This document shows, in pieces, positions 2,241 through 17,621 of a stretch of DNA of 20,000 bases. This DNA is from an uncultured virus (IMG/VR IMGVR_UViG_3300036715_002708) (Duplodnaviria; Heunggongvirae; Uroviricota; Caudoviricetes): IMG/VR virus record IMGVR_UViG_3300036715_002708; one strand, written 5' to 3'. Within the stretch, counting starts at the first letter, position 1. Each line of letters begins with the position of its first letter. Both the position numbers and the translations under genes were made by a program. Below the pieces are notes generated by a model. It ran no database searches and was not told the origin of the DNA. It saw nothing but the letters and a program-made list of their open reading frames with translations.

Positions 2241-3533
2241 ATGGAAAGCAAAGTTAGAACAAGATATATCGTTATTATCCCTAGGGGAGCAGGAAGTATA
2301 CAATACGTGGCAATGAACGCTATTGTCGGTACATTCTATAGTAGCGGGGCCAACAATAAGATATATGACTCTTTAGAGTTAATATTCCCAGGAGCTTATA
2401 AGCCTTTCCCAGAGAAAAGAGAGCTCATAGCTAAAGTTGCCGTGGAGGCCCTGTCATACGCTCGCAATGTTCGCATTAAATATACTAATTGCGAAGCAGA
2501 CGATGACGATCGTCACAGAATGGTGATTTTGGCTATTGCGAGTCATACGAAAAATAAGGACGTTTCTCATCTAGTTGTGCTGGAGAAATACCTTTCGGAA
2601 AAAGATATTATGGACCTTCCAACAACAGACAGCTCTAGGCATCGCACCTCGCCTGTCGGGATGGGGAACGTTCAGGGTGGCCCATCACAACAGCAGCAGC
2701 AATCGACTGGGTATATTTATATGCCTAAGAACGATATCCCTTTAATACTCAATAAGCACGAAGCCATGGTTCTTGATGATGTCCTTAACGCAATAGTTAA
2801 TCGCAAAAGAATTTTTGAAGACTATGGCCTAAACCAGGTGATGGATACTAACAGCATGTGTTTCTTGTTTCATGGCGCTCCTGGAACCGGAAAGACACAG
2901 GCTGCAAAGTATATAGCTAAGAAACTTAACATGCCTCTACTTGTGGTGGACCATAGTCAAATTGTTGATAAGTATGTTGGAGAAACTGAAAAGCGCATTG
3001 CTGAAGTTTTCAAGCGCGCAGAGCAGGAAAAGTGTATTCTCTTCTTTGATGAAGCCGACTCTTTGCTTGGGGCGCGCAGCGGAGCCGAGCACTCCTGGGA
3101 GATAAGCAAAGTTAACTCTCTTCTACAATCAATGGAAACATTTAACGGTGTAGCTATTTTTGCTACTAACTATGCGTCACAGTTAGACCAAGCTGTTAAT
3201 AGACGACTGTTGATGAAGGTAAACTTTGAACTCCCCGACCAAGAGGAGAGGGCTAAGATTTGGGAAGCTCTACTACCCGCTAAAATCCCCAAAGACCCGC
3301 TTGATTTTAAGGCTCTTGGTAAATATTTTATGACTGGAGGAGAGATTAAAAACGCTATTATCTCTGCTACAGTAGAAGTAGCTAAAACAAATGCCAAACT
3401 AAACATGGATACTCTAAACAAAATGGCAGCTAAAGTAATCGGGGAACGTCTCTTCGACCCATACAAAGAAGCCGACAAGGAGAGGTCTAAGAGAAGCCTC
3501 GGTTTTACTAATGTTCCCATGGAGCTCAAGTGA
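2241..3533 (+). CDS. AAA+ ATPase, classic clade, with uncharacterised N-terminal domain and Q-rich linker
   Basis: AGGAGG RBS at 2231-2236; Walker A GAPGTGKT, pore loop KYVGETEK, Walker B LFFDEAD, sensor-1 ATN, SRH LDQAVNRR, C-terminal SLGF. Confidence 0.92.
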   Translation: MESKVRTRYIVIIPRGAGSIQYVAMNAIVGTFYSSGANNKIYDSLELIFPGAYKPFPEKRELIAKVAVEALSYARNVRIKYTNCEADDDDRHRMVILAIASHTKNKDVSHLVVLEKYLSEKDIMDLPTTDSSRHRTSPVGMGNVQGGPSQQQQQSTGYIYMPKNDIPLILNKHEAMVLDDVLNAIVNRKRIFEDYGLNQVMDTNSMCFLFHGAPGTGKTQAAKYIAKKLNMPLLVVDHSQIVDKYVGETEKRIAEVFKRAEQEKCILFFDEADSLLGARSGAEHSWEISKVNSLLQSMETFNGVAIFATNYASQLDQAVNRRLLMKVNFELPDQEERAKIWEALLPAKIPKDPLDFKALGKYFMTGGEIKNAIISATVEVAKTNAKLNMDTLNKMAAKVIGERLFDPYKEADKERSKRSLGFTNVPMELK

Positions 3534-4583: not shown

Positions 4584-5684
4584 ATGAAGATGAATATCGA
4601 AGACGCTAAGGCCGCAATCAAGTCACTCGACGTTACTATTCCAGTTTTCCTGTGGGGACCCCCTGGAGTGGGAAAGTCTGCACTTGTGAAGCAGCTTGCC
4701 GAGGAAGTCGGAATGGGATTCAAAGATGTCCGCCTCACTACCATTGACCCAACTGACCTTCGAGGTCTGCCATATATTTATGAGGGCAGGGCGTATTGGG
4801 CAAACCCAGTAATCTTGCCACAGAGGGCAGACGAAAAGAACGGAATAAAGGGAGATGAGGAACATGGATATTTGCTCTTAGATGAATTGAATTCTGCTCA
4901 CACTACCATTCAGGCTGGCGCCTATCAGTTGGTGCTTGACCGTAGGGTTGGTGAATATATTCTTCCCGATGGGTGGCGCATTATCGCTGCCGGTAACAGA
5001 GAAGAGGACCGTGGTGTTACTTTCCAGATGCCTCGCCCCCTACAGAATAGATTTGTCCATATTGAGATTGAGGTTGACAAAAAGATCTGGGTCAATTGGG
5101 CCATGAAGTCTGGAGTGTCACCAACTGTTATAGCTTTTATTGAGTCCCAACCTGGAATGCTTAACCCGCAGGATAAGGATAAAACGAAAAAGGCTTTCCC
5201 CACTCCTCGCACCTGGGAGTATTCCAGCCGTATTATTGAAACGGTAAAGAATGAAGACTTACTCATCCCATTGCTCCAGGGCACTATTGGAGATGCGGCA
5301 AGCCACCAATTTGTAAGTTTCCTTAAGCTGCGCCACAAGCTTCCAAATCTGGACAAGATTTTTGCTGGAAAGCAGGAGGAGTTGCCAACTGAGACCTCTC
5401 TTCAGTATGCTTTTTATGCTGCCCTTTGTGGCAAAGTGGATGATTTGGTCAAGGAAAAGGGCATCACTAAGCTCACTAAAGATGATAAGTTTATCGGTGG
5501 TTTGGTATATTGCATCACCAAATTGGAAAGAGAGTTTGTAGAGCTTATCGTTCGTCATCTTTCTGAAAGGCAGGGTCAGCTTTTTGTCTCTATAATCAAA
5601 ACCGCACCCGCTCTCGCAAAAGAACTCACTAAAATGTATGGTGAGATGATGACGGTTAGCATGAAATTCGGTGGTGGGAAATAG
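4584..5684 (+). CDS. MoxR-type AAA+ ATPase (copy 1)
   Basis: AAGGAG RBS; Walker A GPPGVGKS, DLRGLP motif, Walker B LLDELN, AAGN sensor-1, LQNRF arginine finger, PTPRTW; adjacent to a vWA gene. Confidence 0.9.
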   Translation: MKMNIEDAKAAIKSLDVTIPVFLWGPPGVGKSALVKQLAEEVGMGFKDVRLTTIDPTDLRGLPYIYEGRAYWANPVILPQRADEKNGIKGDEEHGYLLLDELNSAHTTIQAGAYQLVLDRRVGEYILPDGWRIIAAGNREEDRGVTFQMPRPLQNRFVHIEIEVDKKIWVNWAMKSGVSPTVIAFIESQPGMLNPQDKDKTKKAFPTPRTWEYSSRIIETVKNEDLLIPLLQGTIGDAASHQFVSFLKLRHKLPNLDKIFAGKQEELPTETSLQYAFYAALCGKVDDLVKEKGITKLTKDDKFIGGLVYCITKLEREFVELIVRHLSERQGQLFVSIIKTAPALAKELTKMYGEMMTVSMKFGGGK

Positions 5685-5694
5685 AACGGTTTGG

Positions 5695-5703
5695 TGCTAT
5701 ATT
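5695..5703 (+). promoter_or_regulatory. Possible extended -10 promoter element (TGcTATATT)
   Basis: TGnTATATT in the intergenic gap; same -10 hexamer as at 6992 and 19840; no good -35. Confidence 0.35.
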
Positions 5704-5704
5704 T

Positions 5705-5732
5705 AAGGGAGTGGGAATTACCCCACTCCCTT
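5705..5732 (+). terminator. GC-rich hairpin; weak intrinsic terminator or mRNA-stabilising stem-loop between MoxR and vWA genes
   Basis: AAGGGAGTGGG / CCCACTCCCTT 11-bp perfect stem with AATTAC loop; only a short T tail. Confidence 0.5.
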
Positions 5733-5770
5733 TAACTGGGTGTTAGCTGAAGTAGATATAGGAGTTAAAA

Positions 5771-6988
5771 ATGGCAGATTTTCTGGCTGGTAAAAGCGAT
5801 TCTGAAATTGCAAAGATTAAAATAGCGGCAGCTAAGAGAGAAGCTCATTCTAAATGTCCTTTCTTTGCGTTTCTTTTATTCGCTCCTAATTATAAAGAAA
5901 TGCCAGACGAACTATGGACCAGTAGAGGCGGAGAGCCAACGATGGCAACTGACGGAGAGAATATTCTATATTCCGTTCAGTTTGTCAAGAACATTCCTAT
6001 TGACCAGCTTATTGGCGTTCTTATACATGAAGTGTTGCACTGCGCTTTACTTCACGTCGTTAGAAAGGGTGTTCGTGATATTATTAAGTGGAACTATGCT
6101 ATAGATTATGCTACCAATTCCATCATAACAAAAAATAATATAAGCCTCCCACCCGGAAGCCTATACGACCCGAAATATAATGACAAGAGTGCTGAAGAGA
6201 TTTATATCGACATCTCTAAAAATCCGCCAAATATAAAGAAAGTAAAAATGTTTGACATGCATATGTTTGGAGACGATAAAGACGACAAGAAAAAGAACAA
6301 TGGTGGAGGCCAGAGTTCTAGTGAAAAGTTCAAGGAGCAGATGTGGAAGTCTCACCTCGCTAACGCCGCTGTTCAGGCACGCCAACAGGGGAAGCTCCCA
6401 GCTGGGATGGAACGTATTATCGAAGGAGTTCTGGAAGATAAGATTCCTTGGCAGCAAATGCTTGCTCGCTATTTAAGCCCATTTGCTCTAAAAACTGATT
6501 ATGATTGGTGCAAGCCTAATAAAAAGATGCTCCAGTCTGGTATCGTTCTTCCTGGGTTTAGCTCCGAAAGTCTCGAGATAGCAGTAGGAGTAGATACTTC
6601 TGGATCTATCAGCGAAAAAGACATCCAGTGTTTCCTTGGTGAAGTTCGAGGAATTATGAGTGTGGCTCAGTCTTATAACATTCATATTATCGGATGTGAT
6701 GCAGCCGCTAATGAAGAAAATTATCATCTTGTCACAGAATGTGACCCAACCCTTCCCAAAGGTCTTGGAGGCGGGGGCGGAACTGATTTTCGTCCCGTCT
6801 TTGACCTTGTGGAAAAGAAGGGTATCAGGCCGGCTGTACTTGTTTATTTCACCGATGGGTATGGAACATTCCCTGAAAAGCCCCCAGCATATGACGTTAT
6901 CTGGTGTGTAGTTCCTGGTGGAGTAGGCGCCGAACAGATTCCATGGGGCATGTATGTCAAGACAGAGTTTGAGCAAGAAGAAGGTTAG
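5771..6988 (+). CDS. HExxH metallopeptidase-like plus vWA domain protein (DUF2201-like), partner of MoxR copy 1
   Basis: AGGAG RBS; TMATDG, HEVLH zincin motif, WNYAID, MIDAS VDTSGS, GGGGTDF, YFTDGYG. Confidence 0.9.
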   Translation: MADFLAGKSDSEIAKIKIAAAKREAHSKCPFFAFLLFAPNYKEMPDELWTSRGGEPTMATDGENILYSVQFVKNIPIDQLIGVLIHEVLHCALLHVVRKGVRDIIKWNYAIDYATNSIITKNNISLPPGSLYDPKYNDKSAEEIYIDISKNPPNIKKVKMFDMHMFGDDKDDKKKNNGGGQSSSEKFKEQMWKSHLANAAVQARQQGKLPAGMERIIEGVLEDKIPWQQMLARYLSPFALKTDYDWCKPNKKMLQSGIVLPGFSSESLEIAVGVDTSGSISEKDIQCFLGEVRGIMSVAQSYNIHIIGCDAAANEENYHLVTECDPTLPKGLGGGGGTDFRPVFDLVEKKGIRPAVLVYFTDGYGTFPEKPPAYDVIWCVVPGGVGAEQIPWGMYVKTEFEQEEG

Positions 6989-6997
6989 CTGTATATT
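6969..6997 (+). promoter_or_regulatory. Putative sigma70-type promoter
   Basis: TTGAGC (6969-6974), 17-bp spacer, TATATT (6992-6997), upstream of the small-gene and RCC1 block. Confidence 0.5.
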
Positions 6998-7009
6998 TAA
7001 AGGATAGAG

Positions 7010-7031
7010 TGGGCCGCCTGCAGGCGGCCCA
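7010..7031. repeat. Perfect 22-bp GC-rich palindrome
   Basis: TGGGCCGCCTGCAGGCGGCCCA is its own reverse complement; lies directly before the GAAAGGA RBS. Confidence 0.9.
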
Positions 7032-7044
7032 GAAAGGAAATAAA

Positions 7045-7233
7045 ATGCCAGATAGATTTATTTATAGCAATACGGGAGCACTTGCCTACCGAGTTTCGGA
7101 CCAGGGGAGTAGTATCTTTATATATAATGCCCAAGGCCAATTAGCGTATAGATACGACCGAGCTGCAAACATTACATATGATGCAACAGGTGGAATTGTT
7201 ATGTTCGGTTCTATCCTACCGAACCTATCATAA
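7045..7233 (+). CDS. Small beta-hairpin repeat protein (62 aa)
   Basis: Start reassigned to ATG 7045 after AAAGGA; internal repeats FIYSNTGALAYR / FIYNAQGQLAYR / ITYDATGGIV. Confidence 0.65.
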   Translation: MPDRFIYSNTGALAYRVSDQGSSIFIYNAQGQLAYRYDRAANITYDATGGIVMFGSILPNLS

Positions 7234-7451
7234 TGCTTCCTAACATGTGGTGGGGATATCTTCACTCGAATGGAACTATTCAAGTCAAAAGATGGTGGGG
7301 AAACCGCGCAGACTATACCACTGATTGTGAAAATAGTCCCTTTGTTGTTAGCGTAGTCCAACCCTTTGAGGCTAATAGTAGAGAGGACGCTATGCAGATT
7401 GCACGTGCGCATTTGTTTCCAATCCCGCACATCATTCCAAAACACCAATGA
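7233..7451 (+). CDS. Hypothetical protein (72 aa)
   Basis: TAATG overlap with upstream gene; Trp/Tyr-rich small protein. Confidence 0.6.
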   Translation: MLPNMWWGYLHSNGTIQVKRWWGNRADYTTDCENSPFVVSVVQPFEANSREDAMQIARAHLFPIPHIIPKHQ

Positions 7452-7525
7452 ACGCATTGTTGAACTTTTGGCCTCGAAAAAATGATGAATATTAAAGAAG
7501 CCGCATATAAGGACAGTAGGAGCTG

Positions 7526-7801
7526 GTGGTGAGCAAGAAACATATAAATAGAGAACAAGAGCGACAGACAGTGAGACAAGAACAAAACTACGCGAACACA
7601 CAGCGAATGCCGCTAGAACCACCTCGTTATGTTAAGCCTCCAGATTTCGATATTGTGATAGAGGGCTATGTTCCTTTCGGTGTTTTATGGAACAATATAA
7701 AAACTGAATGGCATAGCCGCTGGGATACTTTCACAAATGTCATCAAGCAACGAATAGTGAAATATCTGGTATCATGGCACCAACAAAACAGAAACCTATG
7801 A
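7526..7801 (+). CDS. Hypothetical protein (about 90 aa)
   Basis: AGGAG upstream of GTG (start 7526 or 7529). Confidence 0.55.
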   Translation: MVSKKHINREQERQTVRQEQNYANTQRMPLEPPRYVKPPDFDIVIEGYVPFGVLWNNIKTEWHSRWDTFTNVIKQRIVKYLVSWHQQNRNL

Positions 7802-7809
7802 GCGACGAA

Positions 7810-8919
7810 ATGAAATCGAGAAAGAGGAGAAGTGAAGTAGGTAACACTAGCTCTATTGCTTCAGTTTTAGAATTATCAAAAATTGTGTTCCTTATCGGTG
7901 GTGATTTCCTTACCTTGAAAAAAGACGGAACGGTCTGGGCCTGGGGGAAGTACAATGGCAATGGCCAACTCGGTAACGGGACAAACACCGAGAGCAATGT
8001 TCCCGTCCAAGTTTCAGGGCTCACTGGGGTAACGGCCATCGCGGGGGGCGGTGCACATTCCCTCGCCTTGAAAAACGATGGTACGGTTTGGGCCTGGGGG
8101 TATAACGGCGATGGCGAGCTTGGCAACGGGACCAACATCAATAGTAATGTCCCCGTTCAAGTCTCAGGGCTCACGGGAATCACAGCTATCTCAGCGGGCC
8201 ATTCTCATTCACTCGCCTTGAAAAATGACGGTACGGTCTGGGCCTGGGGGTGGAACGGTTGGGGCCAACTCGGCAACGGGATCTGGGACAATAGCCAAGT
8301 TCCTGTTCGCGTTGCTGGGCTTACCCACATTATAGCTATCTCTTCTGGCTACACGCATTCCATTGCCCTGAAAGACGATGGAACGGTCTGGGCGTGGGGA
8401 TATAACAAATATGGACAACTCGGCAACGGAACTAGGGACGATAGCTATGTCCCCGTTCAAGTTGCAGGACTTACAGGGATTACGGCCATCGCCGGAGGTA
8501 ATGACTATTCCCTCGCCTTGAAAAATGATGGGACGGTATGGGCCTGGGGGTGTAATTATTGGGGTCAACTCGGCAACGGGACCTATACAGACAGAGATCT
8601 CCCAGTTCAAGTTTCATGGCTCACTGACGTTACGGCCATTGTTGGAAGTGGCGACCATTCCCTTGCCTTGAAAAACGACGGCACGGTCTGGGCCTGGGGG
8701 TATAACGGCGAAGGCGAGCTTGGCAACGGGACCAACACGTGTAGCAATGTCCCCGTCCAGGTTTCAGGGCTTACCGGGGTCACCGCCATCGCGGGAGGTG
8801 GGGGACATTCCCTCGCCTTCAAAAATGATGGGACAATCTGGACCTGGGGACGTAATAATTACGACCAACTCGGTAACTGGGGCAACACCGATAGCAATGT
8901 CCCCGTTCAGGTAACTTAG
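7810..8919 (+). CDS. RCC1-repeat beta-propeller protein 1 (7 repeats)
   Basis: Seven ~50-aa repeats of consensus [48 protein letters not shown]; start 7810 (MKS) chosen by analogy with paralogues, 7798 is an alternative. Confidence 0.92.
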   Translation: MKSRKRRSEVGNTSSIASVLELSKIVFLIGGDFLTLKKDGTVWAWGKYNGNGQLGNGTNTESNVPVQVSGLTGVTAIAGGGAHSLALKNDGTVWAWGYNGDGELGNGTNINSNVPVQVSGLTGITAISAGHSHSLALKNDGTVWAWGWNGWGQLGNGIWDNSQVPVRVAGLTHIIAISSGYTHSIALKDDGTVWAWGYNKYGQLGNGTRDDSYVPVQVAGLTGITAIAGGNDYSLALKNDGTVWAWGCNYWGQLGNGTYTDRDLPVQVSWLTDVTAIVGSGDHSLALKNDGTVWAWGYNGEGELGNGTNTCSNVPVQVSGLTGVTAIAGGGGHSLAFKNDGTIWTWGRNNYDQLGNWGNTDSNVPVQVT

Positions 8920-9022
8920 TATAACGCCTAGTTTTCGAGTCAATGGTCGAAGATTCTGTGATATCATCAGTGCGTAATAGATTAGAAACGTTTGCACCAC
9001 TTGAGCAGAAAGTGACAGTCAA
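8920..9022 (+). repeat. Conserved intergenic spacer, copy 1
   Basis: Aligns with 9971-10073 and 12340-12436; shared blocks TAAC, TCGAGTCAAT, ATTAGARACGTTTGCA, TTGAGCAGAAAG. Confidence 0.9.
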
Positions 9023-9970
9023 ATGAAATCGGTCGGGATTGCAAAACTATTTGATACATCTTCAGTTCCAGTGACCATTATATTCGGTAATGGATTGGGG
9101 CATGTTATTGCTTTTCAGAGTGATGGGACGGTTTGTATTGGGGGAGGAGGTAACGGTACCGACGAACTTACAAACAAAATCAACACCAATAACAAGGTTC
9201 TAACCCCGATTTCGAGGCTCACGGGGATTACGGCTGTCGCGAAGGGCTTTTCCCATTCCCTCGCCTTGAAAGATGACGGGACGGTATGGGCCTGGGGTGC
9301 TAATAGTTACGGCCAGCTTGGCAATGGGATCTGGGACAGTAGCGGTCTCCCCGTTCAGGTTTCAGGGCTTACCGGCGTTACGGCCATCTCGGTGGGCGGT
9401 AACCATTCTCTTGCCTTGAGAAATGACAGAACTGTCTGGGCGTGGGGGCGCAATAATCACGGCGAAATCGGTAACGGGACGAATACCAATAGCAATATCC
9501 CCGTTCAGGTTTCAGGGCTCACGGGGATCACGACCATCACTGGGGGCGGATATCATTCCCTTGCCTTGAAAAATGACGGTACGGTCTGGGCCTGGGGGGG
9601 TAACTGGGACGGCCAACTCGGCAACGGGACTAGGGATGATAGCAATGTTCCTATTCAAGTTTCAGGGCTCACTGGGATTACGGACATCGTTGGGGGTGGT
9701 TGGCATTCCCTCGCCTTAAAAAACGACGGTACGGTCTGGGCCTGGGGGTGGAACGGTTGGGGCCAACTCGGCAACGGGGTCTCGGGCAACAATAACAATC
9801 TTCCAGCTCAGGTTTCAGGGCTTATAGGGATCACGGCCATCACGGGGGGCGGTGCACATTCCATCGCATTGAAAAGTGATGGGACGGTCTGGGCGTGGGG
9901 GCGCAATAATCACGGCCAACGCGGTAATGGAGCCAACACCGATAGCAATGTCCCAGTTCAGGTGACTTAG
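9023..9970 (+). CDS. RCC1-repeat beta-propeller protein 2 (6 repeats, first degenerate)
   Basis: Same repeat consensus; ends PVQVT-stop like protein 1. Confidence 0.92.
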
Positions 9971-10073
9971 TATAACAGCTAATTGTCGAGTCAATGGTCG
10001 CAGATTATGTAATATCACCAGTGCGTAGGGAATTAGAGACGTTTGCATCATTTGAGCAGAAAGGAACAGTCAA
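9971..10073 (+). repeat. Conserved intergenic spacer, copy 2
   Basis: 103 bp, same length as and colinear with copy 1. Confidence 0.9.
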
Positions 10074-12101
10074 ATGAAATCATCCGAAATCGTAAAACTA
10101 CTCAATGACTCTTCAGTTGTAGCTGTTGTAAGTAGCGGCTCACATTCCCTCGCCTTGAAAAGTGACGGGACGGTCTTGGCGTGGGGGAGGAATTTTGACG
10201 GCCAACTCGGCAACGGGACTAGGGACGATAGCAATGTTCCCGTCCAAGTTTTGGGGCTGAGCGGAATTACGGCTATCGCAGCGGGCCATTCTCATTCCCT
10301 CGCCTTGAAAAACGACGGTACGGTCTGGGCGTGGGGTGCTAACTGGTCTGGCGAACTCGGCAACGGGACCAACACGTGTAGCAATGTCCCCGTCCAGGTT
10401 TCAGGGCTCACTGGCGTTACGGCTATCGCTGGAGGCTTTTGTCATTCCCTTGCCCTCAAAAGTGACGGGACAGTCTGGGCATGGGGTGATAATGGAGGCG
10501 GCCAACTCGGCAATGGGACCAACACATGGAGCAATGTCCCCGTTCAGGTTTCAGGTTTAACTGGAATTATGGCCATTGCGGGGGGCTGTTATCATTCCCT
10601 CGCCTTGAAAAATGACGGTACGGTCTGGGCCTGTGGGTATAATGGTTTCGGCGAACTCGGCAACGGGACCAACTCCGATAGCAGTCTCCCCGTCCAGGTT
10701 TCAGGGCTCACTGGGGTAACGGCCATCGCGGGGGGCTGGTCTCATTCCCTCGCCTTGAAAAACGACGGTACGGTCTGGGCATGGGGGTGGAATTACCTCG
10801 GCGCACTCGGCAACGGAACCTGGAACAGTAGCAATATCCCCGTCAAAGTTTCAGGACTTACGGGGCTCACTAAAATCGCGGGTGGCTATCTCCATTCCCT
10901 CGCCTTGAAAAACGACGGCACGGTCTGGGCCTGGGGGTGGAACGGTTGGGGCCAACTCGGCAACGGAACCAACACGTGTAGCAATGTCCCCGTCCAGGTT
11001 TCAGGGCTCACTGGCGTTACGGCTATCGCGGGAAGTTCTGGCCATTCCCTCGCATTAAAGAGTGACGGGACGGTCTTGGCCTGGGGATGTAATGATTACG
11101 GCCAACTTAGCAATGGGACCTACACTAATAGCAATATCCCCGTCCACGTTTTAGGGCTCACAGGGGTTACGGCCGTCGTGGAGGGCAGTAATCATTTCCT
11201 CGCCTTGAAAAATGACGGGACAGTTTGGGCCTGGGGTGATAATGAATACGGCCAGCTTGGCAACGGGACCAACACCGGTAGCAATGCCCCCGTTCAAGTT
11301 TTAGGGCTCACGGAGATCATTGCAATCGCGGCTGGAGATTATCATTCCCTCGCCCTGAAAAGTAACGGGACCGTCTGGGTCTGGGGGTGGAATTTTTACG
11401 GCCAACTCGGCAACGGGACCTACACTAGTAGCAATGTCCCCATCCAGATTTTGGGGTTCACTAGGGTTATTGCCATTGCTGGGGGCTATGACCATTCCCT
11501 CGCCTTAAAAAATGACGGTACGGTCTGGGCCTGGGGGCGTAATTATTGGGGTCAACTCGGCAATGAGACAACTATAGATAGCAATTACCCTGTTAAGGTC
11601 TCAGGGCTCACGAGGGTCACTAAAATCGCGGGAGCCCGTTGTCATTCCCTCGCATTGAAAAATGACGGGACGGTTTGGGCATGGGGGTATAACGATGACG
11701 GCGAACTCGGCAACGGGACCTACTCCCAGAGCAATCTCCCCGTCCAGGTTGCAGGGCTCACTGGCGTTACGGCCATCGTTGGGGGTAGTCGTCATTCCCT
11801 TGCCTTGCGGAATGACGGTACAGTCTGGACGTGGGGTAATAATGAATACGGCCAGCTTGGCAACGGGGCCAATGCCAATAGCAATCTCCCCGTCCAGGTT
11901 GCAGGGCTCACTAGCGTCACAGCTATCGCGGCGGGCTGGGCTCATTCCCTCACCTTGAAAAATGATGGGACGGTCTTGACCTGGGGATGGACTAATTACG
12001 GTCAATTTGACAACGGGGTTCGCATCAATAGCAAAATCCCTAACCAGTTTGACACACGAGCCAAACGTCAATTTGTTGTGCAATTGGAGTGGTCAAGTTG
12101 A
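10074..12101 (+). CDS. RCC1-repeat beta-propeller protein 3 (13 repeats)
   Basis: Thirteen GTV[W/L]x[W/C]G cores at 150-bp period; AAAGGA RBS. Confidence 0.93.
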   Translation: MKSSEIVKLLNDSSVVAVVSSGSHSLALKSDGTVLAWGRNFDGQLGNGTRDDSNVPVQVLGLSGITAIAAGHSHSLALKNDGTVWAWGANWSGELGNGTNTCSNVPVQVSGLTGVTAIAGGFCHSLALKSDGTVWAWGDNGGGQLGNGTNTWSNVPVQVSGLTGIMAIAGGCYHSLALKNDGTVWACGYNGFGELGNGTNSDSSLPVQVSGLTGVTAIAGGWSHSLALKNDGTVWAWGWNYLGALGNGTWNSSNIPVKVSGLTGLTKIAGGYLHSLALKNDGTVWAWGWNGWGQLGNGTNTCSNVPVQVSGLTGVTAIAGSSGHSLALKSDGTVLAWGCNDYGQLSNGTYTNSNIPVHVLGLTGVTAVVEGSNHFLALKNDGTVWAWGDNEYGQLGNGTNTGSNAPVQVLGLTEIIAIAAGDYHSLALKSNGTVWVWGWNFYGQLGNGTYTSSNVPIQILGFTRVIAIAGGYDHSLALKNDGTVWAWGRNYWGQLGNETTIDSNYPVKVSGLTRVTKIAGARCHSLALKNDGTVWAWGYNDDGELGNGTYSQSNLPVQVAGLTGVTAIVGGSRHSLALRNDGTVWTWGNNEYGQLGNGANANSNLPVQVAGLTSVTAIAAGWAHSLTLKNDGTVLTWGWTNYGQFDNGVRINSKIPNQFDTRAKRQFVVQLEWSS

Positions 12102-12145
12102 CAAAGAGAACCACCAAAACTAACAACTACGAGGAAAACAACGAA

Positions 12146-12339
12146 ATGAAATTGACCAAGCGAGCAAAAGCATTTGACAAATCCGCAGTCATAGCGACTA
12201 TCAAACTTGATAATGGATTAGAACATGCTATTGCTTTGCAGAATGACAGGACGGTCTAGGCGTGGGGGGGTACAACAATTCCGGTCAGCCTAGAAACAAG
12301 ACAACTAAACACAGTAAATCTCCCTTTCAGGTGACTTAG
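12146..12339 (+). pseudogene. Disrupted single-repeat RCC1 gene (copy 4)
   Basis: MKLTKRAKAFDKSAVIATIKLDNGLEHAIALQNDRTV then TAG at 12257 where TGG is expected, a G7 run that shifts the frame, then YNNSGQPRNKTTKHSKSPFQVT-stop. Confidence 0.8.
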
Positions 12340-12436
12340 TTAACAGCCAAATTTCGAGTCAATACTCTAAATTCTGTGGTGCAATCAGGCATAGGGGATT
12401 AGAGACGTTTGCATTTGAGCAGAAAGGAGCGATCGA
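12340..12436 (+). repeat. Conserved intergenic spacer, copy 3 (more diverged)
   Basis: 97 bp; retains TCGAGTCAAT, GATTAGAGACGTTTGCA, TTGAGCAGAAAGGA. Confidence 0.85.
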
Positions 12437-12643
12437 ATGAAATCGGCTAGGGTTTCAAAACCATTCGACACATCTGTATTTACAAAAATTATCACGCTCG
12501 CTACTAGTAGGGGCTCACATTCCCTCGCCTTGAAAAAAGACGGTACGGTCTGGGCTTGGGGGGGTAACTGGGCAGGCCAGCTTGGCAACGGGGCCGATAT
12601 CACCAGCAGCAATCTTCCTGTCCAGGTTTCAGGATTGAATTAA
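12437..12643 (+). CDS. Single-repeat RCC1 mini-gene or truncated gene (copy 5, 68 aa)
   Basis: AAGGAG RBS, MKS start, one intact repeat [25 protein letters not shown]...PVQVSGL; followed by an eroded remnant HNNHGQL at 12652-12672. Confidence 0.7.
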   Translation: MKSARVSKPFDTSVFTKIITLATSRGSHSLALKKDGTVWAWGGNWAGQLGNGADITSSNLPVQVSGLN

Positions 12644-12712
12644 ACTTGAAGCATAATAACCACGGACAACTTTAAATCGATACACTTAAAAATTAATAGC
12701 AAGGAGTACAAT

Positions 12713-13432
12713 ATGAGAGAAGATATTGATATTTATGCTATCCCTCCGGATGATAAGGGGTGGCGGATACTACCTAATGGGAACAAAGTGATGCTAGGTG
12801 AAGATGTAAAACTAGGCTATGGTGTGCAGCTTGGTGAATATGTTAGTATTGGTTCTGGCACGAGAATTGGTGGTCTCGTGTGGATAGGTAATTTTGTATC
12901 GTTTAAGAATAATGTAGAAGTTGGCAACAAGGTGATGATAGGTCATGGCGTCACTATAGGCAAAAATGTTAAATTAGGCAATAGTGTAATTCTTGGCAAT
13001 GGTGTAATATTATGTGACGACGTACGCCTTGGGGATAACGTGATTCTTGGAGACGACACGTGTCTCGGCAGCGGGACAACTAGTGACACACTCTATAAAG
13101 ATTTTATCTCTGCACTACCAGAAGTATTTGAGGCATGGAAATGGGTGACGGCGGAACGTAAATCTCCCTTTTCTGATGTGGTACGGGATTATTCAGATGG
13201 AGCCATCGTGGAAGAACCGGCGGCTATTCGCGATAACAAGGTAACTGGCCCAGGCTTATACGTAGTTCGTCCAGGTTACAGGCCTGAATATCTTGGACTT
13301 GCGTGGCCTAACTCAGGACTAATTTGTCTTCGAGTGGAGGTTCGTCGGGAGGATGTTTGCTTCGGTGGGCTTCCGACTAGGGATGCTATCCTACGCGTCA
13401 AAAGACTTAAGGTGCTTAATCAGGTAGGCTAA
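12713..13432 (+). CDS. Hexapeptide-repeat (left-handed beta-helix) protein with a distinct C-terminal globular domain
   Basis: AAGGAG RBS; long run of [VI]x[LI]Gxx hexapeptides (VMLGED VKLGYG VQLGEY VSIGSG...), then AWKWV...SPF...Y..G...GLYV...LRVEV...ILRVKRLKV. Confidence 0.8.
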   Translation: MREDIDIYAIPPDDKGWRILPNGNKVMLGEDVKLGYGVQLGEYVSIGSGTRIGGLVWIGNFVSFKNNVEVGNKVMIGHGVTIGKNVKLGNSVILGNGVILCDDVRLGDNVILGDDTCLGSGTTSDTLYKDFISALPEVFEAWKWVTAERKSPFSDVVRDYSDGAIVEEPAAIRDNKVTGPGLYVVRPGYRPEYLGLAWPNSGLICLRVEVRREDVCFGGLPTRDAILRVKRLKVLNQVG

Positions 13433-13534: not shown

Positions 13535-14659
13535 ATGAGCAGAATAATTCTCCTCAATGAAATTATAACTATCTCTCGTAAGGATTTAAAATATTGCCAT
13601 GTACCTAAGAAAGGAAAGCCAATACTTGAAAACTATCCAGCGAAAAAGATATTTGGCAGAGTAAATTCTATGGACAGGCGAGGCATTGAGATGTCGTTAA
13701 TGATTCCCATGTTAGAGAATGAAACAATAGTGGGAACGATGGACACTGGAGTTCAAATTATTATTCCCACTAAAAAAGTTGACCGCATTCTCGACAAATT
13801 TTATGGTACAGACTTTGGCACCGCCGCCTCCTTGCCAGAAGAGATACATATTCCTACTCAGAAAACACTAGTGTCGGTAAAGGTTCATCGCCCTGGGGAG
13901 GTGAACATGAAGTTTACTCCGACACTCACTACAAATATTGCCGCCGTAGCCGAACAGATTAAAAAGGGGAATGAGGCATCTAGAGTCACGATCTTTGGCG
14001 ACATTGGCTCTGGTAAAACTTCACTAGCGGAAACACTATTTAGCGCTATTGGAATTCCATATATTATTGTAAATCAATATTGGTGGGCCGCAATGCCCTT
14101 TGAGGATTTAATTAGCGGCCTAAATTTTCTAGCTGATGTTGGAGCGGAAAGAAAACTTGGCATTATGCTTGATAATTTAGATGAACTTGTCGCGAGCACT
14201 TTGGTAAGCGATGCAGGGGGACAAGGTACAAGTAGTAGCCAAACAGCTACTCTACTTTTTCATCTTTCTCGTATATTCCGCCTCTTTCCTGGGACTATTA
14301 TCTCAACGACCTCTAGTGGTGAAGGTCTCGGTCATTTAAACGCTCAGACTCAATACTTTTTTAGTCTTAGTCTAAGTGAAACAGAACGGGCAAGTTTCTG
14401 GGAAATGATTTGTCCTACTGCTAGTAAAATGAAAGAAGAAATTGCAAGAGAAAATTTACCGATTAGTATTATGTGTGCTTTACTAAAGCAAGCTAAGGCC
14501 ATAGGATCTCTTCATAAAAGAAAGAATCCATCTGACGAAGATGTCAGGTGCGCATTGCAGTGCTGTGGAAAGAAAGAAGATGGGCAGCAGACTGGGTTTA
14601 TCAACGCACATTTCCACCCTGATGACCAAGTCAAACAGATTAAACGAAAGGAGGATTAA
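13535..14659 (+). CDS. Divergent AAA+-like P-loop ATPase
   Basis: GGAGG RBS; Walker A GDIGSGKT, Walker B-like IMLDNLDEL, lid-like ERASFWE, terminal QTGF. Confidence 0.7.
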   Translation: MSRIILLNEIITISRKDLKYCHVPKKGKPILENYPAKKIFGRVNSMDRRGIEMSLMIPMLENETIVGTMDTGVQIIIPTKKVDRILDKFYGTDFGTAASLPEEIHIPTQKTLVSVKVHRPGEVNMKFTPTLTTNIAAVAEQIKKGNEASRVTIFGDIGSGKTSLAETLFSAIGIPYIIVNQYWWAAMPFEDLISGLNFLADVGAERKLGIMLDNLDELVASTLVSDAGGQGTSSSQTATLLFHLSRIFRLFPGTIISTTSSGEGLGHLNAQTQYFFSLSLSETERASFWEMICPTASKMKEEIARENLPISIMCALLKQAKAIGSLHKRKNPSDEDVRCALQCCGKKEDGQQTGFINAHFHPDDQVKQIKRKED

Positions 14660-15277: not shown

Positions 15278-16795
15278 ATGGAACTGAAAAAACTAGGAAT
15301 ATATGGGTGTGAGGCCATTGAAGACCTCATAGCCGCATCTATTTTAACCGGAGATTCGGCTATGTTTATTGGCAGTGCTGGAACTGGCAAAACATTTATG
15401 CTAGAGAGACTGGCCGAAGCTCTCGATCTTAAGTTCATTGCCTATAATTGTTCATCTAATAATTTTGAAGATCTTATTGGATTTCCCATTCTGAATTCAG
15501 ATAAATCGGCGATGGACTTTATCCCTACCCCAACATCTATTTGGGGAGTTAACCTTGTTCTTCTTGATGAGATTAATAGGGCTAGGCTTGACATTCAGAA
15601 TCACTATTTTCAGCTCATTAGGAATCGTAGCATCCAGGGGAAGAAAGTAGATAGTCTTAAATGGGTTTTTGCCGCGATGAACCCATTGAGTTATGCAGGA
15701 ACTCAGCCGCTTGATAAAGCTCTCGCTGACCGTTTTGCTTGGGTTATCAGGACTCCTGCTTTTCATGTAATAAACGAGGAAGATAGACATAGTATTATAA
15801 GTAATATCACATGTGACGATGCTCCTGCTATGAGTCATTGGGGCTTTTCTAAGTCATTTAGCCGAGACGAGAAATTGACAGTTGAACTAAAGTCATATTT
15901 CAAAGCCGCAGCCGCCATTTACAATCAGTATCTTAACGATTGTAACGATGTGATCCAATATGTAGACGATTTTATTATTTCAGTTAACAATGCAAGCGGT
16001 TACTCTGGGACCATAGAGGGCCGCAGAGCGGGTATTCTCCTTCGCAACATCCTTTCTCTCGCGGCAGTTAGAGAGGCTAGTGGCTTACCTGGTGGCCTGG
16101 AAGCAGCAGCAGGTAAAGCTATTTTCCATTCGTTCATCAATGAAGCTGTTGATGAACCTATTCCAAACAAGGTACTTGAGACTGCCCATGAGAAGGCCAA
16201 GGTATATCTGCGTAAGTCCGCCTCGTCTATCATGGAGACTATTGAGCGTTTACCTTATTCAATTCAAAAAATAGCTAAGGGTATGAGATATAACATTGAT
16301 CCGGTAGTCTTGGGTGGATATATAAACGCCCACCTCTCGGAGATTAATTCGGACCCAATGGCGATGGAAGCTTTTGCTTTAGCCATTTGGCCATTTCTAA
16401 AAAATTCTAACGTTACCAATGATGCTCTTGCTTCTATAGCCAGCATAATTTCCATTATACTTTCTAACCAAGACTCGGACTTTTATCAGGATGTATCACT
16501 TAGAGAAGAAATAGATATTAAGACGTCGGGGGCACTTGAACTGAACCATATAATTGATTTGATAACTCCAAATCCCAAACAGAATTTTACTAATATATCT
16601 AACTTGCTTAATTCAAAAGATGTCTATGACGAGATATCTCACCGCCAAGGACTAAGACCAAAGTTGTCGTCCCATACAGACTTTTCAGCCGAAAAAGTGA
16701 GAGGAGCTAAGATGTTAAAGGCTTATATGTACGTGTTGTCCAATAACAATTTTACTCCAGATGTATTTGCCTCATCTCAACAGAAGGAGGTATAA
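15278..16795 (+). CDS. MoxR/RavA-like AAA+ ATPase (copy 2) with C-terminal helical extension
   Basis: AAGGAGG RBS; Walker A GSAGTGKT, EDLIGFP, Walker B LLDEINRA, AAMNP sensor-1, LDKALADRF arginine finger, sensor-2-like EGRR. Confidence 0.88.
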   Translation: MELKKLGIYGCEAIEDLIAASILTGDSAMFIGSAGTGKTFMLERLAEALDLKFIAYNCSSNNFEDLIGFPILNSDKSAMDFIPTPTSIWGVNLVLLDEINRARLDIQNHYFQLIRNRSIQGKKVDSLKWVFAAMNPLSYAGTQPLDKALADRFAWVIRTPAFHVINEEDRHSIISNITCDDAPAMSHWGFSKSFSRDEKLTVELKSYFKAAAAIYNQYLNDCNDVIQYVDDFIISVNNASGYSGTIEGRRAGILLRNILSLAAVREASGLPGGLEAAAGKAIFHSFINEAVDEPIPNKVLETAHEKAKVYLRKSASSIMETIERLPYSIQKIAKGMRYNIDPVVLGGYINAHLSEINSDPMAMEAFALAIWPFLKNSNVTNDALASIASIISIILSNQDSDFYQDVSLREEIDIKTSGALELNHIIDLITPNPKQNFTNISNLLNSKDVYDEISHRQGLRPKLSSHTDFSAEKVRGAKMLKAYMYVLSNNNFTPDVFASSQQKEV

Positions 16796-17617
16796 ATGCT
16801 TAAGATAACCTGTTTTACTCCCAACAAAGACAAGGCAATGTTAGAAAACATTTTGCTACTTATAGAGTCTGAATCTGACGAGAAGCGCATAGCCATATTT
16901 AGAGAATTTAATGACTTCGGAGAGGTTCACTGTAAAGGCTGGCCCATTCTCAATCAAGAAGATTATGATAATTGTATGCTTATAGTTAAAAACCAAGGAC
17001 TTAATGAATCATTTGTGGTGGACAGTCCGGACTCTGAAAATGCTAACGTTATAACTAATATTTTCCGACATACTTTACTGCCTGGACCATTTCATAAAGT
17101 CATTTCCACTTCTATTGCAGCTGATTTTTGGAGTGCTGCACAGCTTCGTGCCAATAGACCACAAAGCTATGGCGAATCAGTTGATATTTTTACTTTCGAT
17201 GCACTAAAAGAAATGTGGAAATCTATTGGGAAAAGTGGATTTAGCAGTAAAAGTAAATCAGACTTATACGAGGGATTTGCTGAATCTGCAAGTGATATAG
17301 CCACTAGTCCAGAAAGCGAGGAATTCTGTAATCAACTTCCTGCTCGTATGATACAATTGGAAAATAACTATCATACTACTTATATGAAGCCCAATACTAC
17401 CATCATGTCTCCTACCAAGGTCTTAGCTCTCACCTCCAGAATATCTGGAAAAGTGCTCTATAACAAAGAGTCCTCGCCAGAGATTACTAATGATACAATT
17501 AGAAATAGACACATCATTGTAGACTTAATCGATCCATATAAAGATCCGATAGAAAGCGGTTTTACTACGGAGCAAGAAGCTCTGGCTGCTCTGACACCTA
17601 TTCCTCACAAGGAATAA
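16796..17617 (+). CDS. Hypothetical protein (273 aa) between MoxR copy 2 and its vWA partner
   Basis: AAGGAGGT RBS; abuts upstream stop. Confidence 0.8.
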   Translation: MLKITCFTPNKDKAMLENILLLIESESDEKRIAIFREFNDFGEVHCKGWPILNQEDYDNCMLIVKNQGLNESFVVDSPDSENANVITNIFRHTLLPGPFHKVISTSIAADFWSAAQLRANRPQSYGESVDIFTFDALKEMWKSIGKSGFSSKSKSDLYEGFAESASDIATSPESEEFCNQLPARMIQLENNYHTTYMKPNTTIMSPTKVLALTSRISGKVLYNKESSPEITNDTIRNRHIIVDLIDPYKDPIESGFTTEQEALAALTPIPHKE

Positions 17618-17621
17618 ACAA

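What the first reader, a model, noticed from the sequence alone, without database searches (positions are those of the whole stretch)
7810..12101. RCC1 propeller array with three hypervariable segments per repeat that reassort between genes: candidate shuffled binder repertoire
Seen: each 150-bp repeat has a near-invariant frame and three variable segments, V1 (before HSLAL), V2 (WG-xNxx-G) and V3 (after GNG), rich in W/Y/F/C/D/R. Nucleotide-identical or near-identical variants recur with different neighbours. V2 WNGW (tggaacggttggggccaactcggcaacgg at 8251, 9749, 10938) is followed by V3 IWDN, VSGN and TNTC respectively. V3 TNTC (accaacacgtgtagcaatgtccccgtccaggtttcagggc at 8731, 10368, 10968) follows YNGE, ANWS and WNGW. 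V3 TRDD (8431, 9629, 10218) follows YNKY, GNWD and RNFD. V3 IWD (8281, 9329) follows WNGW and ANSY. V1 AGHSHS (8194, 10281) precedes WNGW and ANWS. Whole-repeat duplication alone would not give this mosaic. Established: RCC1/BLIP-II propellers bind proteins through aromatic loops on one face. Inference: recombination or gene conversion in the constant segments builds a combinatorial set of binding surfaces, conceptually like lamprey VLR assembly, in a phage-like element. No hydrophobic signal peptide is evident, so the proteins may act in the cytoplasm or on the virion.
Basis: partly seen in the sequence, partly recalled or inferred. Interest (0 to 1): 0.85.

Follow-up and report, generated by a model that had tools for sequence, protein, structure and literature searches.

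The report
Mosaic RCC1 propeller genes in phage
A fragment of a very large phage genome carries a small tandem family of RCC1-type propeller genes whose repeats have exchanged short pieces; the mosaic is real, but it looks typical of this widespread bacterial repeat family, not like a dedicated diversity-generating system.

Summary
Window 7810-12643 carries five tandem cassettes of RCC1 repeats: A has 7, B has 6, C has 13, D is a decayed one-repeat pseudogene, and E is a one-repeat 68-aa ORF. Each 150-nt repeat has a conserved frame and eight hypervariable codons in three segments.

Exact tracts of 41-62 nt that include variable codons are shared between otherwise ~73%-identical repeats. This exceeded all 1000 column-order permutations. 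The three thirds of the repeat have unrelated nearest neighbours.

An AlphaFold model puts V1 and V2/V3 in loops on the same propeller face.

- The same frame and variable positions occur in 9 of 9 bacterial homologues.
- Sub-repeat exact tracts of 35 nt or more occur in 32 of 89 foreign RCC1 loci.
- Silent divergence among repeats is high (dS ~0.8), and hypervariable codons give dN/dS 0.81.
- The PHI test is not significant.
- No diversifying enzyme was found.
- The closest phage genome (333 kb) has no RCC1 genes, and the array's codon usage looks foreign.

Best reading: bacterial-type RCC1 binder genes captured by a huge phage, shaped over evolutionary time by duplication, unequal crossover and short-tract gene conversion. 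This is a new member of a known kind.

The parts
7810..8919 (+). Cassette A: RCC1-like propeller gene with 7 repeats. The ORF can also start at 7774, but the start conserved among cassettes (ATGAAATCG) is at 7810.
   Evidence: Pfam WD40_RLD E 3.7e-98 and RCC1 x7. Repeat register. AlphaFold pLDDT 90.3, pTM 0.87, 28 strands. Foldseek UVR8 TM 0.88. Start motif.
8917..9022 (+). Conserved intergenic leader, copy 1. It runs from the TAG stop of A to the ATG of B.
   Evidence: 84% identical to copy 2 over 106 nt. Alignment. No Rfam family and no covariation.
9023..9970 (+). Cassette B: RCC1-like gene with 6 repeats. Like A, it ends ...NVPVQVT-TAG.
   Evidence: Pfam. Register. AlphaFold pLDDT 86.6, pTM 0.85, 24 strands. 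The model overlays seven-bladed UVR8 at TMq 0.88, rmsd ~2.1 A over ~313 columns, which I read as six of seven blades.
9968..10073 (+). Conserved intergenic leader, copy 2.
10074..12101 (+). Cassette C: RCC1-like gene with 13 repeats (equal to 6+7). Its last repeat and C-terminus have diverged.
   Evidence: Pfam WD40_RLD E 3.8e-242 in 3 stretches. Register.
12146..12339 (+). Cassette D: decayed one-repeat copy. A TAG replaces the conserved Trp codon at codon 38, and the frame is lost after that.
   Evidence: Sequence and translation.
12337..12436 (+). Conserved intergenic leader, copy 3, with a 3-nt deletion.
12437..12643 (+). Cassette E: intact 68-aa ORF made of the cassette N-terminus plus a single complete repeat (one blade).
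   Evidence: RCC1 HMM hit at contig 19239-19346, which is window 12539-12646. Translation.
5771..6988 (+). Left conserved flank: DUF2201 protein (putative metallopeptidase plus vWA-like domain), paired with the MoxR-like AAA gene at 4584-5684.
   Evidence: Pfam. PHROG 1314 and 1297. 80% identical homologue in related phages L015 and L016.
13535..14659 (+). Right conserved flank: AAA-like gene that is also present in the related phages. The 6.5 kb between the flanks is lineage-specific cargo.
   Evidence: Homologue at L016 18178-19272, while the slot between holds other genes.

Best explanation
The array is lineage-specific cargo in a variable slot of a huge phage (about 330 kb). It is a tandem family of five cassettes, each made of a leader, a short N-terminus and n RCC1 repeats. 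They encode bacterial-type RCC1-like beta-propeller proteins without evident secretion signals.

Each blade contributes a 3-residue loop (V1) and a 14-residue loop (V2 and V3) to one face. That face is rich in Trp, Tyr, Asn, Asp and Gly and is the likely ligand-binding surface.

The family was shaped over evolutionary time by three processes:
- cassette duplication;
- unequal crossover between repeats, giving repeat numbers of 7, 6, 13, 1 and 1;
- occasional short-tract gene conversion or template switching (about 30-60 nt) within and between cassettes, which recombines V1, V2 and V3 variants.

This is ordinary homologous recombination acting on repeats, as in many bacterial members of the family, and not a programmed assembly system.

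Shown: the anatomy, the mosaic, the fold, the loop positions, the foreign codon usage, and the absence from the nearest relatives. Inferred: that the variable face binds host or other proteins during infection or on the virion, and which recombination enzymes act.
For: Phage context:
- The record is a 70,756-nt virus record, about 21% complete.
- The contig encodes DNA polymerase, primase, a UvsX-like recombinase, an SbcC-like protein and PhoH.
- Relatives with 80% identical flanking genes include a 332,730-nt, 100% complete genome.

Cargo status:
- 0 of 2 related records have any RCC1 match.
- In those relatives the same slot holds a ligase-like gene and five paralogous ~210-280 aa proteins.
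- GC3 of the RCC1 genes is 56-60%, against 32-47% in 13 neighbouring genes.

Bacterial affinity:
- 7717 proteins had E <= 0.001 among 8000 candidates scored. The best were 43-71% identical, and many carry T9SS, Ig-like, S-layer-homology (SLH) or dockerin domains.
- Only 24 of 50,697 phage records match, all at 37% identity or less.

Fold and loops.

Mosaic.

Cassette structure and decay.

Family-wide pattern:
- The entropy profile is the same in 9 of 9 homologues.
- In-repeat exact tracts of 35 nt or more occur in 32 of 89 foreign loci (14 with 62-149 nt, 18 with 35-61 nt, 57 below 35 nt).

Selection: frame dN/dS is 0.10. The composition of the hypervariable positions is non-neutral.

Literature: passages of PMC9218822 list RCC1/BLIP-II as 10% of highly repetitive propellers, mostly bacterial with a few viral. 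They also describe paralogues that differ only in blade number and decaying young copies.
Against: - The PHI test is not significant.
- dN/dS at the hypervariable codons is 0.81 and saturated, so diversifying selection is not shown.
- No donor was found: the best bacterial match is 62% identical and the leader occurs nowhere else.
- The long-range order of repeats rests on one short-read assembly. In four runs the long contigs stop at 7906/7997 and resume at 12135, and only short exact pieces lie inside.
- B lacks a blade and D is broken, so some or all cassettes may be decaying rather than working.
- No binding partner, expression data or localisation is known.
- The absence of a signal peptide was judged by eye only.
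Confidence: 0.6

Rival explanations
1. The array is an actively shuffling combinatorial binder repertoire: frequent recombination in the constant segments continually creates new binding faces in the phage population. This would be functionally comparable to the fungal nwd genes or, more loosely, to VLR assembly.
For: - Sub-repeat tracts are shared within and between cassettes.
- The three segments have unrelated nearest neighbours.
- The variable residues resemble antibody CDRs in composition and lie on one face.
- There are several cassettes, including minimal ones.
- The contig encodes a UvsX-like recombinase and an SbcC-like nuclease.
Against: - dS among repeats is ~0.8 and mean nucleotide identity is 73%. 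That is no higher than the identity to foreign arrays (65-80%).
- There are only 16 exact tracts of 30 nt or more in 4.3 kb.
- The same pattern is found in bacterial genes.
- No dedicated enzyme was found.
- Joints seen in metagenome contigs have short sides and depths above that of the phage, so they come from other genomes.
Confidence: 0.1
2. The propellers are the sensor or third component of a MoxR-vWA conflict system (the beta-propeller ternary type of Kaur et al. 2020), working with the flanking MoxR and DUF2201 genes.
For: - MoxR-like AAA genes paired with DUF2201 vWA-like genes lie on both sides (4584-6988 and 15278-19034).
- One of the AAA proteins gives a weak bpMoxR match.
- An IetA-like AAA gene lies at 2241-3533.
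Against: - The bpMoxR match is 24.8 bits, under the 27-bit cut-off.
- In passages of PMC7159879 that system has the propeller fused to the vWA protein, plus a third protein with TPR repeats, a propeller and a membrane segment. 'RCC1' and 'DUF2201' each occur 0 times in its main text.
- Related phages keep the MoxR/DUF2201 genes but have no RCC1 genes at all.
Confidence: 0.07
3. The cassettes are recently captured genes that are decaying without function in the phage. The conserved frame would then reflect selection in the bacterial donor only.
For: - D carries a nonsense codon and a frame loss.
- E is a single blade.
- B models as six of seven blades.
- The C-terminus of C has diverged.
- Codon usage is foreign.
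- PMC9218822 passages note frequent decay of young propeller genes.
Against: - Three long ORFs (369, 315 and 675 aa) remain open in repetitive DNA.
- A models confidently as a complete propeller.
- The leaders are 84% conserved.
Confidence: 0.15
4. The mosaic is an artefact of short-read assembly across repeats.
For: - In four runs no contig spans the array, and the long contigs break at its edges.
- C6 consists of two shared tracts (47 and 62 nt) separated by one base. Its V1-V2-V3 linkage is therefore the easiest to mis-join.
Against: - A mis-join can swap flanks but cannot create identical tracts in different contexts.
- Independent k=31 contigs at phage-like depth reproduce 8251-8536 with 0 differences, covering WNGW followed by IWDN.
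- They also reproduce 9748-9893, covering WNGW followed by VSGN.
- Further exact pieces cover 8749-9200, 10751-10931, 11000-11220 and 11883-12092.
- One of these runs may be the source sample, so they are not fully independent.
Confidence: 0.05

Closest known systems
Highly repetitive RCC1/BLIP-II beta-propellers of bacteria (Pereira and Lupas 2022, PMC9218822; passages read)
   Same: - Blades average 67% amino-acid identity across the 23 regular repeats, above that paper's 60% criterion.
- The homologues are mostly bacterial.
- Blade number varies between paralogues and there are decaying copies.
   Different: - The genes sit in a huge phage, in a five-cassette tandem array with a conserved leader.
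- The sub-blade mosaic and the hypervariable positions are documented here. 'Hypervariable' occurs 0 times in that paper's main text.
Fungal nwd / HET-E-type WD40 repeats with high internal conservation (Paoletti 2007 and Chevanne 2010, as summarised in PMC4986451; passages read)
   Same: - Both are beta-propeller repeats with a conserved frame.
- A few variable positions per repeat lie on the interaction surface.
- Exchanges occur within and between paralogous genes.
   Different: - The fungal repeats are about 85% identical at the amino-acid level, whole repeats are shuffled, and positive selection is shown.
- Here identity is 67% (amino acid) and 73% (nucleotide), the tracts are shorter than a repeat, dN/dS is 0.81, and there is no NACHT/STAND domain.
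UVR8, HERC2 RCC1-like domains (RLDs), RCC1 and BLIP-II (solved RCC1-like propellers)
   Same: - Seven-bladed fold, with TM 0.88 to UVR8 and phmmer E 2.9e-72.
- V1 aligns with the W-R of a UVR8 'GWRHT' motif (alignment).
- By recall, those residues lie at the UVR8 dimer face, and BLIP-II binds beta-lactamase through loops of one face.
   Different: - About 31% identity to UVR8.
- No evidence here for UV sensing, nucleotide-exchange (GEF) activity or beta-lactamase inhibition.
- The blades are far more alike than in those proteins.
RCC1-annotated proteins of isolated phages (PHROG 4219, 7220, 16766; for example Synechococcus phage S-SRM01)
   Same: RCC1 repeats encoded by phages.
   Different: - Only 24 of 50,697 phage records match, at 37% identity or less.
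- The PHROG profiles are 763-1734 positions long, whereas these genes are short stand-alone propellers closer to bacterial genes.

Membership tests
RCC1-like repeat beta-propeller (Pfam PF00415 / PF25390; RCC1/BLIP-II superfamily) | Tandem ~50-aa RCC1 repeats scoring above the curated cut-offs | tested here: met
   A scores 306 bits for RCC1 (7 stretches) and 330 bits for WD40_RLD. B scores 201 and 233 bits. C scores 545 and 803 bits. The cut-offs are 21.7 and 150 bits.
RCC1-like repeat beta-propeller (Pfam PF00415 / PF25390; RCC1/BLIP-II superfamily) | Seven four-stranded blades forming a closed propeller | tested here: met
   A: pLDDT 90.3, 28 strands, TM 0.88 to UVR8. B has only 24 strands and overlays six of the seven UVR8 blades. 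C was not modelled.
Highly repetitive beta-propellers (Pereira and Lupas 2022) | [quoted passage not shown] | tested here: met
   Mean 67.3% over 23 regular repeats (range 52-86%), and 62.7% over all 26.
nwd-type highly internally conserved repeats under concerted evolution | About 85% amino-acid identity between repeats | tested here: not met
   67% amino-acid and 73% nucleotide identity; dS ~0.8.
nwd-type highly internally conserved repeats under concerted evolution | Exchange of repeat sequence within and between paralogous genes | tested here: met
   Tracts of 41-62 nt are shared by A3/B5/C6, A6/C2/C6 and C2/C5. 0 of 1000 permutations reach the observed maximum.
nwd-type highly internally conserved repeats under concerted evolution | Positive selection at surface positions | tested here: inconclusive
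   Nei-Gojobori dN/dS is 0.81 at 8 hypervariable codons, against 0.10 at 33 frame codons, and is saturated. No orthologues were available for site models.
MoxR-vWA-beta-propeller ternary conflict system (Kaur et al. 2020) | Propeller fused to the vWA component, plus a third protein with TPR repeats, a propeller and a membrane segment; a conserved gene neighbourhood | tested here: not met
   The RCC1 proteins are stand-alone. The bpMoxR match is 24.8 bits, below the 27-bit cut-off. Relatives keep MoxR/DUF2201 without RCC1. The system's description comes from passages read.
Diversity-generating retroelement target | A nearby reverse transcriptase and a template repeat | tested here: not met
   No RVT_1 match in the 70.8-kb contig. 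The contig is only about 21% of the genome, so a distant element is not excluded.
VLR-type programmed gene assembly | An incomplete expressed gene completed from silent donor cassettes by a dedicated enzyme | tested here: not met
   A, B and C are complete ORFs, each with its own leader and start. Pfam named no deaminase or site-specific recombinase family in the 16 window ORFs scanned. Somatic-type variation cannot be tested with these data.

The most novel reading that the evidence does not exclude
The cassette array is a phage-borne, evolvable set of binding propellers used in phage-host conflict. Short-tract exchanges between repeats and changes in blade number would create new binding faces. 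Incomplete products might be completed in trans, for example six-blade B by the single-blade protein E.

For B plus E, complex prediction gave weak support:
- The score was 0.45 (runs 0.45, 0.45, 0.57), against a best of 3 controls of 0.12.
- The mark was reached by 116 of 157 solved complexes and 2 of 215 mismatched pairs. At 0.60 or under it was reached by only 18 of those 157, and by both of the mismatches that passed.
- The runs agree in at least 92% of contacts, and the partner's pLDDT is at least 65.
- My own alignment was used, so these counts hold only roughly.
- The pass may simply reflect likeness to solved seven-bladed propellers.
Probability: 0.1. Interest if true: 0.7.

Novelty: new member of a known kind. 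Interest (0 to 1): 0.35.

Why it matters
If the array is working, it is a compact natural example of how a phage can carry and remodel a family of protein binders built on a very regular scaffold. That is of interest for phage-host conflict and for propeller-based binder engineering.

As it stands, it mainly documents two things. First, short-tract exchange between blades, and not only whole-blade amplification, shapes highly repetitive RCC1 propellers. Second, such genes can be picked up as cargo by huge phages. It does not open a long-standing question.

Tried and rejected
- PHI test, my own implementation: not significant. Incompatibility is uniformly high at all distances, so the test has little power here.
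- Population-level shuffling from public runs. All four runs are Logan contigs, not reads. Joints have sides of 22-50 nt and depths above that of the phage, so they most likely come from other RCC1 genes in the community. They are not usable as evidence either way, and no contig spans the array.
- Search for the conserved leader elsewhere: 0 matches in viral contigs and 0 in metagenome contigs.
- Search for a nucleotide-level donor. The frame 26-mer has 0 matches in GTDB representative genomes. It matches 10 metagenome loci, which are ordinary bacterial-type RCC1 genes at 65-80% identity.
- Leader as an RNA element or signal: no Rfam family, no covariation, and promoter- and terminator-like sites at chance level.
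- DGR: no reverse transcriptase in the contig.
- tRNA genes: none in the window.
- MoxR-vWA ternary system: rejected on architecture and on lack of conservation.
- PADLOC: no hit for the RCC1 proteins.
- Literature. Searches for 'RCC1' with 'huge phage' (0 papers), for 'RCC1' with 'gene conversion', 'repeats' and 'bacteria', and for 'RCC1' with 'phage', 'beta-propeller' and 'repeat' listed no paper whose title or abstract describes such an array. The library does not hold most subscription journals.

Full report
**What is there**

All substantial ORFs in the window lie on the + strand. The overall GC content is about 41%, but 8000-12000 stands out at 53-55%. That stretch holds three ORFs: A (7774-8919), B (9023-9970) and C (10074-12101). 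All three score far above Pfam's cut-offs for RCC1 repeats and the RCC1-like domain.

Anchoring on the DGTV motif gives repeats of 50 aa (150 nt), with three 51-aa exceptions. A has 7, B has 6 and C has 13, so 26 in total. Tandem Repeats Finder reports the same 150-nt period.

Two more cassettes follow the stop of C. D (12146-12339) is a one-repeat copy with TAG in place of the conserved Trp codon, followed by a lost frame. E (12437-12643) is an intact 68-aa ORF with the cassette N-terminus and a single repeat.

B, C and E are each preceded by a conserved leader of about 100-106 nt. Copies 1 and 2 are 84% identical.

**The observation**

Entropy per column shows a strongly conserved frame and eight hypervariable positions: 6 and 7 (V1), 24, 26 and 27 (V2), and 36-38 (V3). 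The 29-mer and the 40-mer each occur exactly three times.

The repeats are not young copies:
- Mean pairwise nucleotide identity is 73% in 23 of 26 repeats (A1, B1 and C13 dropped). It is the same within genes (0.732) as between genes (0.722).
- Silent divergence is high (dS about 0.77-0.84). Frame codons are under strong purifying selection (dN/dS 0.10). The hypervariable codons give 0.81, which is saturated.

Against this background, exact tracts of 62, 54, 50, 47, 47, 41 and 41 nt are shared between particular repeats. No tract covers a whole repeat. Examples:
- C2 and C6 share V3 through to the start of the next repeat.
- A6 shares most of that tract.
- A3, B5 and C6 share the S3-V2 region.
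- A3 and C2 share V1.

Two nulls were applied to 21 of 26 repeats (A1, B1, C13, A7 and B6 dropped):
- Permuting the order of polymorphic columns: 0 of 1000 permutations reach the observed maximum.
- Shuffling letters within columns: the mean maximum is 33 nt and the largest single value is 52 nt, against observed runs of 54, 54, 50, 47 and 47 nt.

The distance matrices of the three thirds of the repeat are uncorrelated. Nearest neighbours differ between thirds for almost every repeat.

As an outside control, exact matches between the array and 10 metagenome RCC1 loci never exceed 34 nt, and with 79 bacterial loci never exceed 31 nt. The longest match in each metagenome locus lies in the frame.

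The states AGHSHS, WNGW and TNTC occur in all four presence/absence combinations for each pair of segments. At least one exchange between V1 and V2 and one between V2 and V3 are therefore required.

My PHI test was not significant (p 0.34 and 0.335). I attribute this to uniformly high incompatibility, but it remains a result against.

**Structure**

AlphaFold, run with a 21-row alignment, models A (from 7810) with pLDDT 90.3 and pTM 0.87 as 28 strands. The best solved matches are UVR8 (TM 0.88), the HERC2/HERC1 RCC1-like domains, RCC1 and BLIP-II.

Within each repeat the strands are VTAIAG (S1), HSLALK (S2), VWAWG (S3) and SNVPVQ (S4). The connections are:
- V1 is the 3-residue S1-S2 loop.
- The invariant N-D-G-T is the S2-S3 turn.
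- V2 and V3 both lie in the 14-residue S3-S4 loop.
- SGLTG links S4 to the next S1.

In an antiparallel meander, alternate loops lie on opposite faces. V1, V2 and V3 therefore share one face, while the DG turn and the moderately variable SGLTG loop lie on the other. This is an argument from topology, because I could not obtain coordinates.

In the phmmer alignment, V1 corresponds to the W-R of a UVR8 GWRHT motif. By recall, those residues lie at the UVR8 dimer interface.

The hypervariable positions are 15% N, 13% G, 13% Y, 12% D and 9.6% W. W is expected at about 1.8% from base composition. This fits a binding surface.

B models confidently (pLDDT 86.6, pTM 0.85) with 24 strands. It overlays seven-bladed UVR8 at rmsd about 2.1 A over about 313 columns. 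I read this as a seven-blade ring missing one blade, not a closed six-blade ring.

**Context**

The window is part of a 70,756-nt IMG/VR virus record estimated at 21% complete. The rest of the contig encodes a DNA polymerase in two ORFs, a primase, a UvsX-like recombinase, an SbcC-like nuclease, exonucleases, PhoH, sigma factors and a third MoxR/DUF2201 pair.

Two related records carry an 80% identical DUF2201 gene. One of them is a 332,730-nt genome scored 100% complete. Neither has any RCC1 match (0 of 2). In both, the slot between the DUF2201 gene and the downstream AAA gene holds other cargo: a ligase-like gene and five paralogous proteins.

GC3 of the RCC1 genes is 56-60%, against 32-47% in the neighbours, and codon preferences differ. 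The array is therefore lineage-specific cargo, probably of foreign origin. It is not a conserved partner of the flanking MoxR/vWA genes.

**Comparison with the family**

The protein search returned 7717 proteins with E <= 0.001 among 8000 candidates scored. They are 43-71% identical, come from many bacterial phyla, and often carry secretion or surface domains. A scan of genome representatives gave 79 loci, with a best identity of 62%. Isolated phages match rarely and weakly (24 of 50,697 records, 37% identity or less).

- In 9 of 9 homologues examined, chosen among the most similar, the per-column entropy profile is the same as in the phage.
- Metagenome RCC1 arrays are 65-80% identical in nucleotides to the window's array. 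That is as similar as the window's repeats are to each other.
- In-repeat exact tracts of 35 nt or more occur in 32 of 89 foreign loci: 14 with 62-149 nt, 18 with 35-61 nt and 57 below 35 nt.

Both the frame-plus-three-loops design and sub-repeat exchange are therefore traits of the family.

Passages of Pereira and Lupas 2022 list RCC1/BLIP-II as 10% of highly repetitive propellers, mostly bacterial with a few viral members. They also describe paralogues that differ only in blade number and decaying young copies. The fungal nwd family is the classical case of repeats exchanged within and between paralogues, with selected surface positions (passages). It differs in having about 85% repeat identity, whole-repeat shuffling and an NTPase domain.

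**Assembly check**

Four runs from microbial mat and sediment hold the flanks at word depths of about 25, 7.5, 10 and 5.5. Their long contigs stop at 7906/7997 and resume at 12135. Inside the array, short pieces at phage-like depth match exactly. Among them are 8251-8536, which covers WNGW followed by IWDN, and 9748-9893, which covers WNGW followed by VSGN.

Frame segments reach depths of hundreds to about 4000, so many other RCC1 genes with 90% or higher local similarity live in these communities. The long-range order is not independently confirmed. However, a mis-join cannot create the shared tracts.

**Verdict**

The mechanism of homologous exchange in the constant segments is supported. 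The claim of a special combinatorial repertoire is not: the pattern is family-typical, the exchanges are few on an old background, selection for diversity is unproven and no dedicated machinery is present.

The most likely reading is captured bacterial-type RCC1 binder genes in a variable slot of a huge phage, undergoing birth, exchange and decay.

Noticed in passing
window 9023-9970 (B) and 12437-12643 (E): B has six of seven blades and E encodes exactly one blade. Complex prediction for B plus E gave weak support: score 0.45 against a best of 3 controls of 0.12. The mark was reached by 116 of 157 solved complexes and 2 of 215 mismatches, but at 0.60 or under by only 18 of the 157 and by both mismatches that passed. 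The runs agree in at least 92% of contacts and the partner's pLDDT is at least 65. My own alignment was used. The pass may reflect likeness to solved seven-bladed propellers.
   Followed up: partly
window 4584-6988 and 15278-19034; contig 37395-40131 (L012 10896-13632): The 70.8-kb phage fragment holds three paralogous pairs of a MoxR-like AAA gene (PHROG 1297) and a DUF2201 metallopeptidase/vWA-like gene (PHROG 1314, labelled 'HNH endonuclease' in PHROGs). Their role in the phage is unknown.
   Followed up: no
window 2241-3533: A classical AAA ATPase matches PADLOC IetA (E 4.2e-44) and PHROG 10401. PADLOC returned no other defence-family match among the 19 window ORFs scanned, apart from weak AAA-type hits.
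   Followed up: no
L016 12065-17907 (same in L015): In the related phages, the slot occupied here by the RCC1 array holds a 314-aa protein, a ligase-like 378-aa protein and five tandem paralogous 209-284 aa proteins that looked Cys-rich on reading the translations. This would make the slot a hot spot for expanding gene families.
   Followed up: no
window 7868-11990, in runs X1-X4: Frame parts of the repeats reach word depths of hundreds to about 4000, against 5-25 for the phage flanks. The same communities therefore hold very many RCC1 genes with 90% or higher local nucleotide similarity. Their owners were not identified.
   Followed up: partly
window 12713-13432: A hexapeptide-repeat (left-handed beta-helix) protein lies directly after the array. 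It is likewise not among the ORFs of at least 150 aa listed for the corresponding slot of the related phages.
   Followed up: no
contig 55370-57994 (L013 9471-12095): The DNA polymerase (PHROG 405) is encoded by two adjacent ORFs that match profile positions 332-648 and 653-1047. This could be a split gene or a frameshift.
   Followed up: no
window 6989-7773: About 780 nt between the DUF2201 gene and cassette A have no convincing gene. The only ORFs are a minus-strand one at 7086-7622 and a 91-aa one at 7526-7801. Neither was examined.
   Followed up: no
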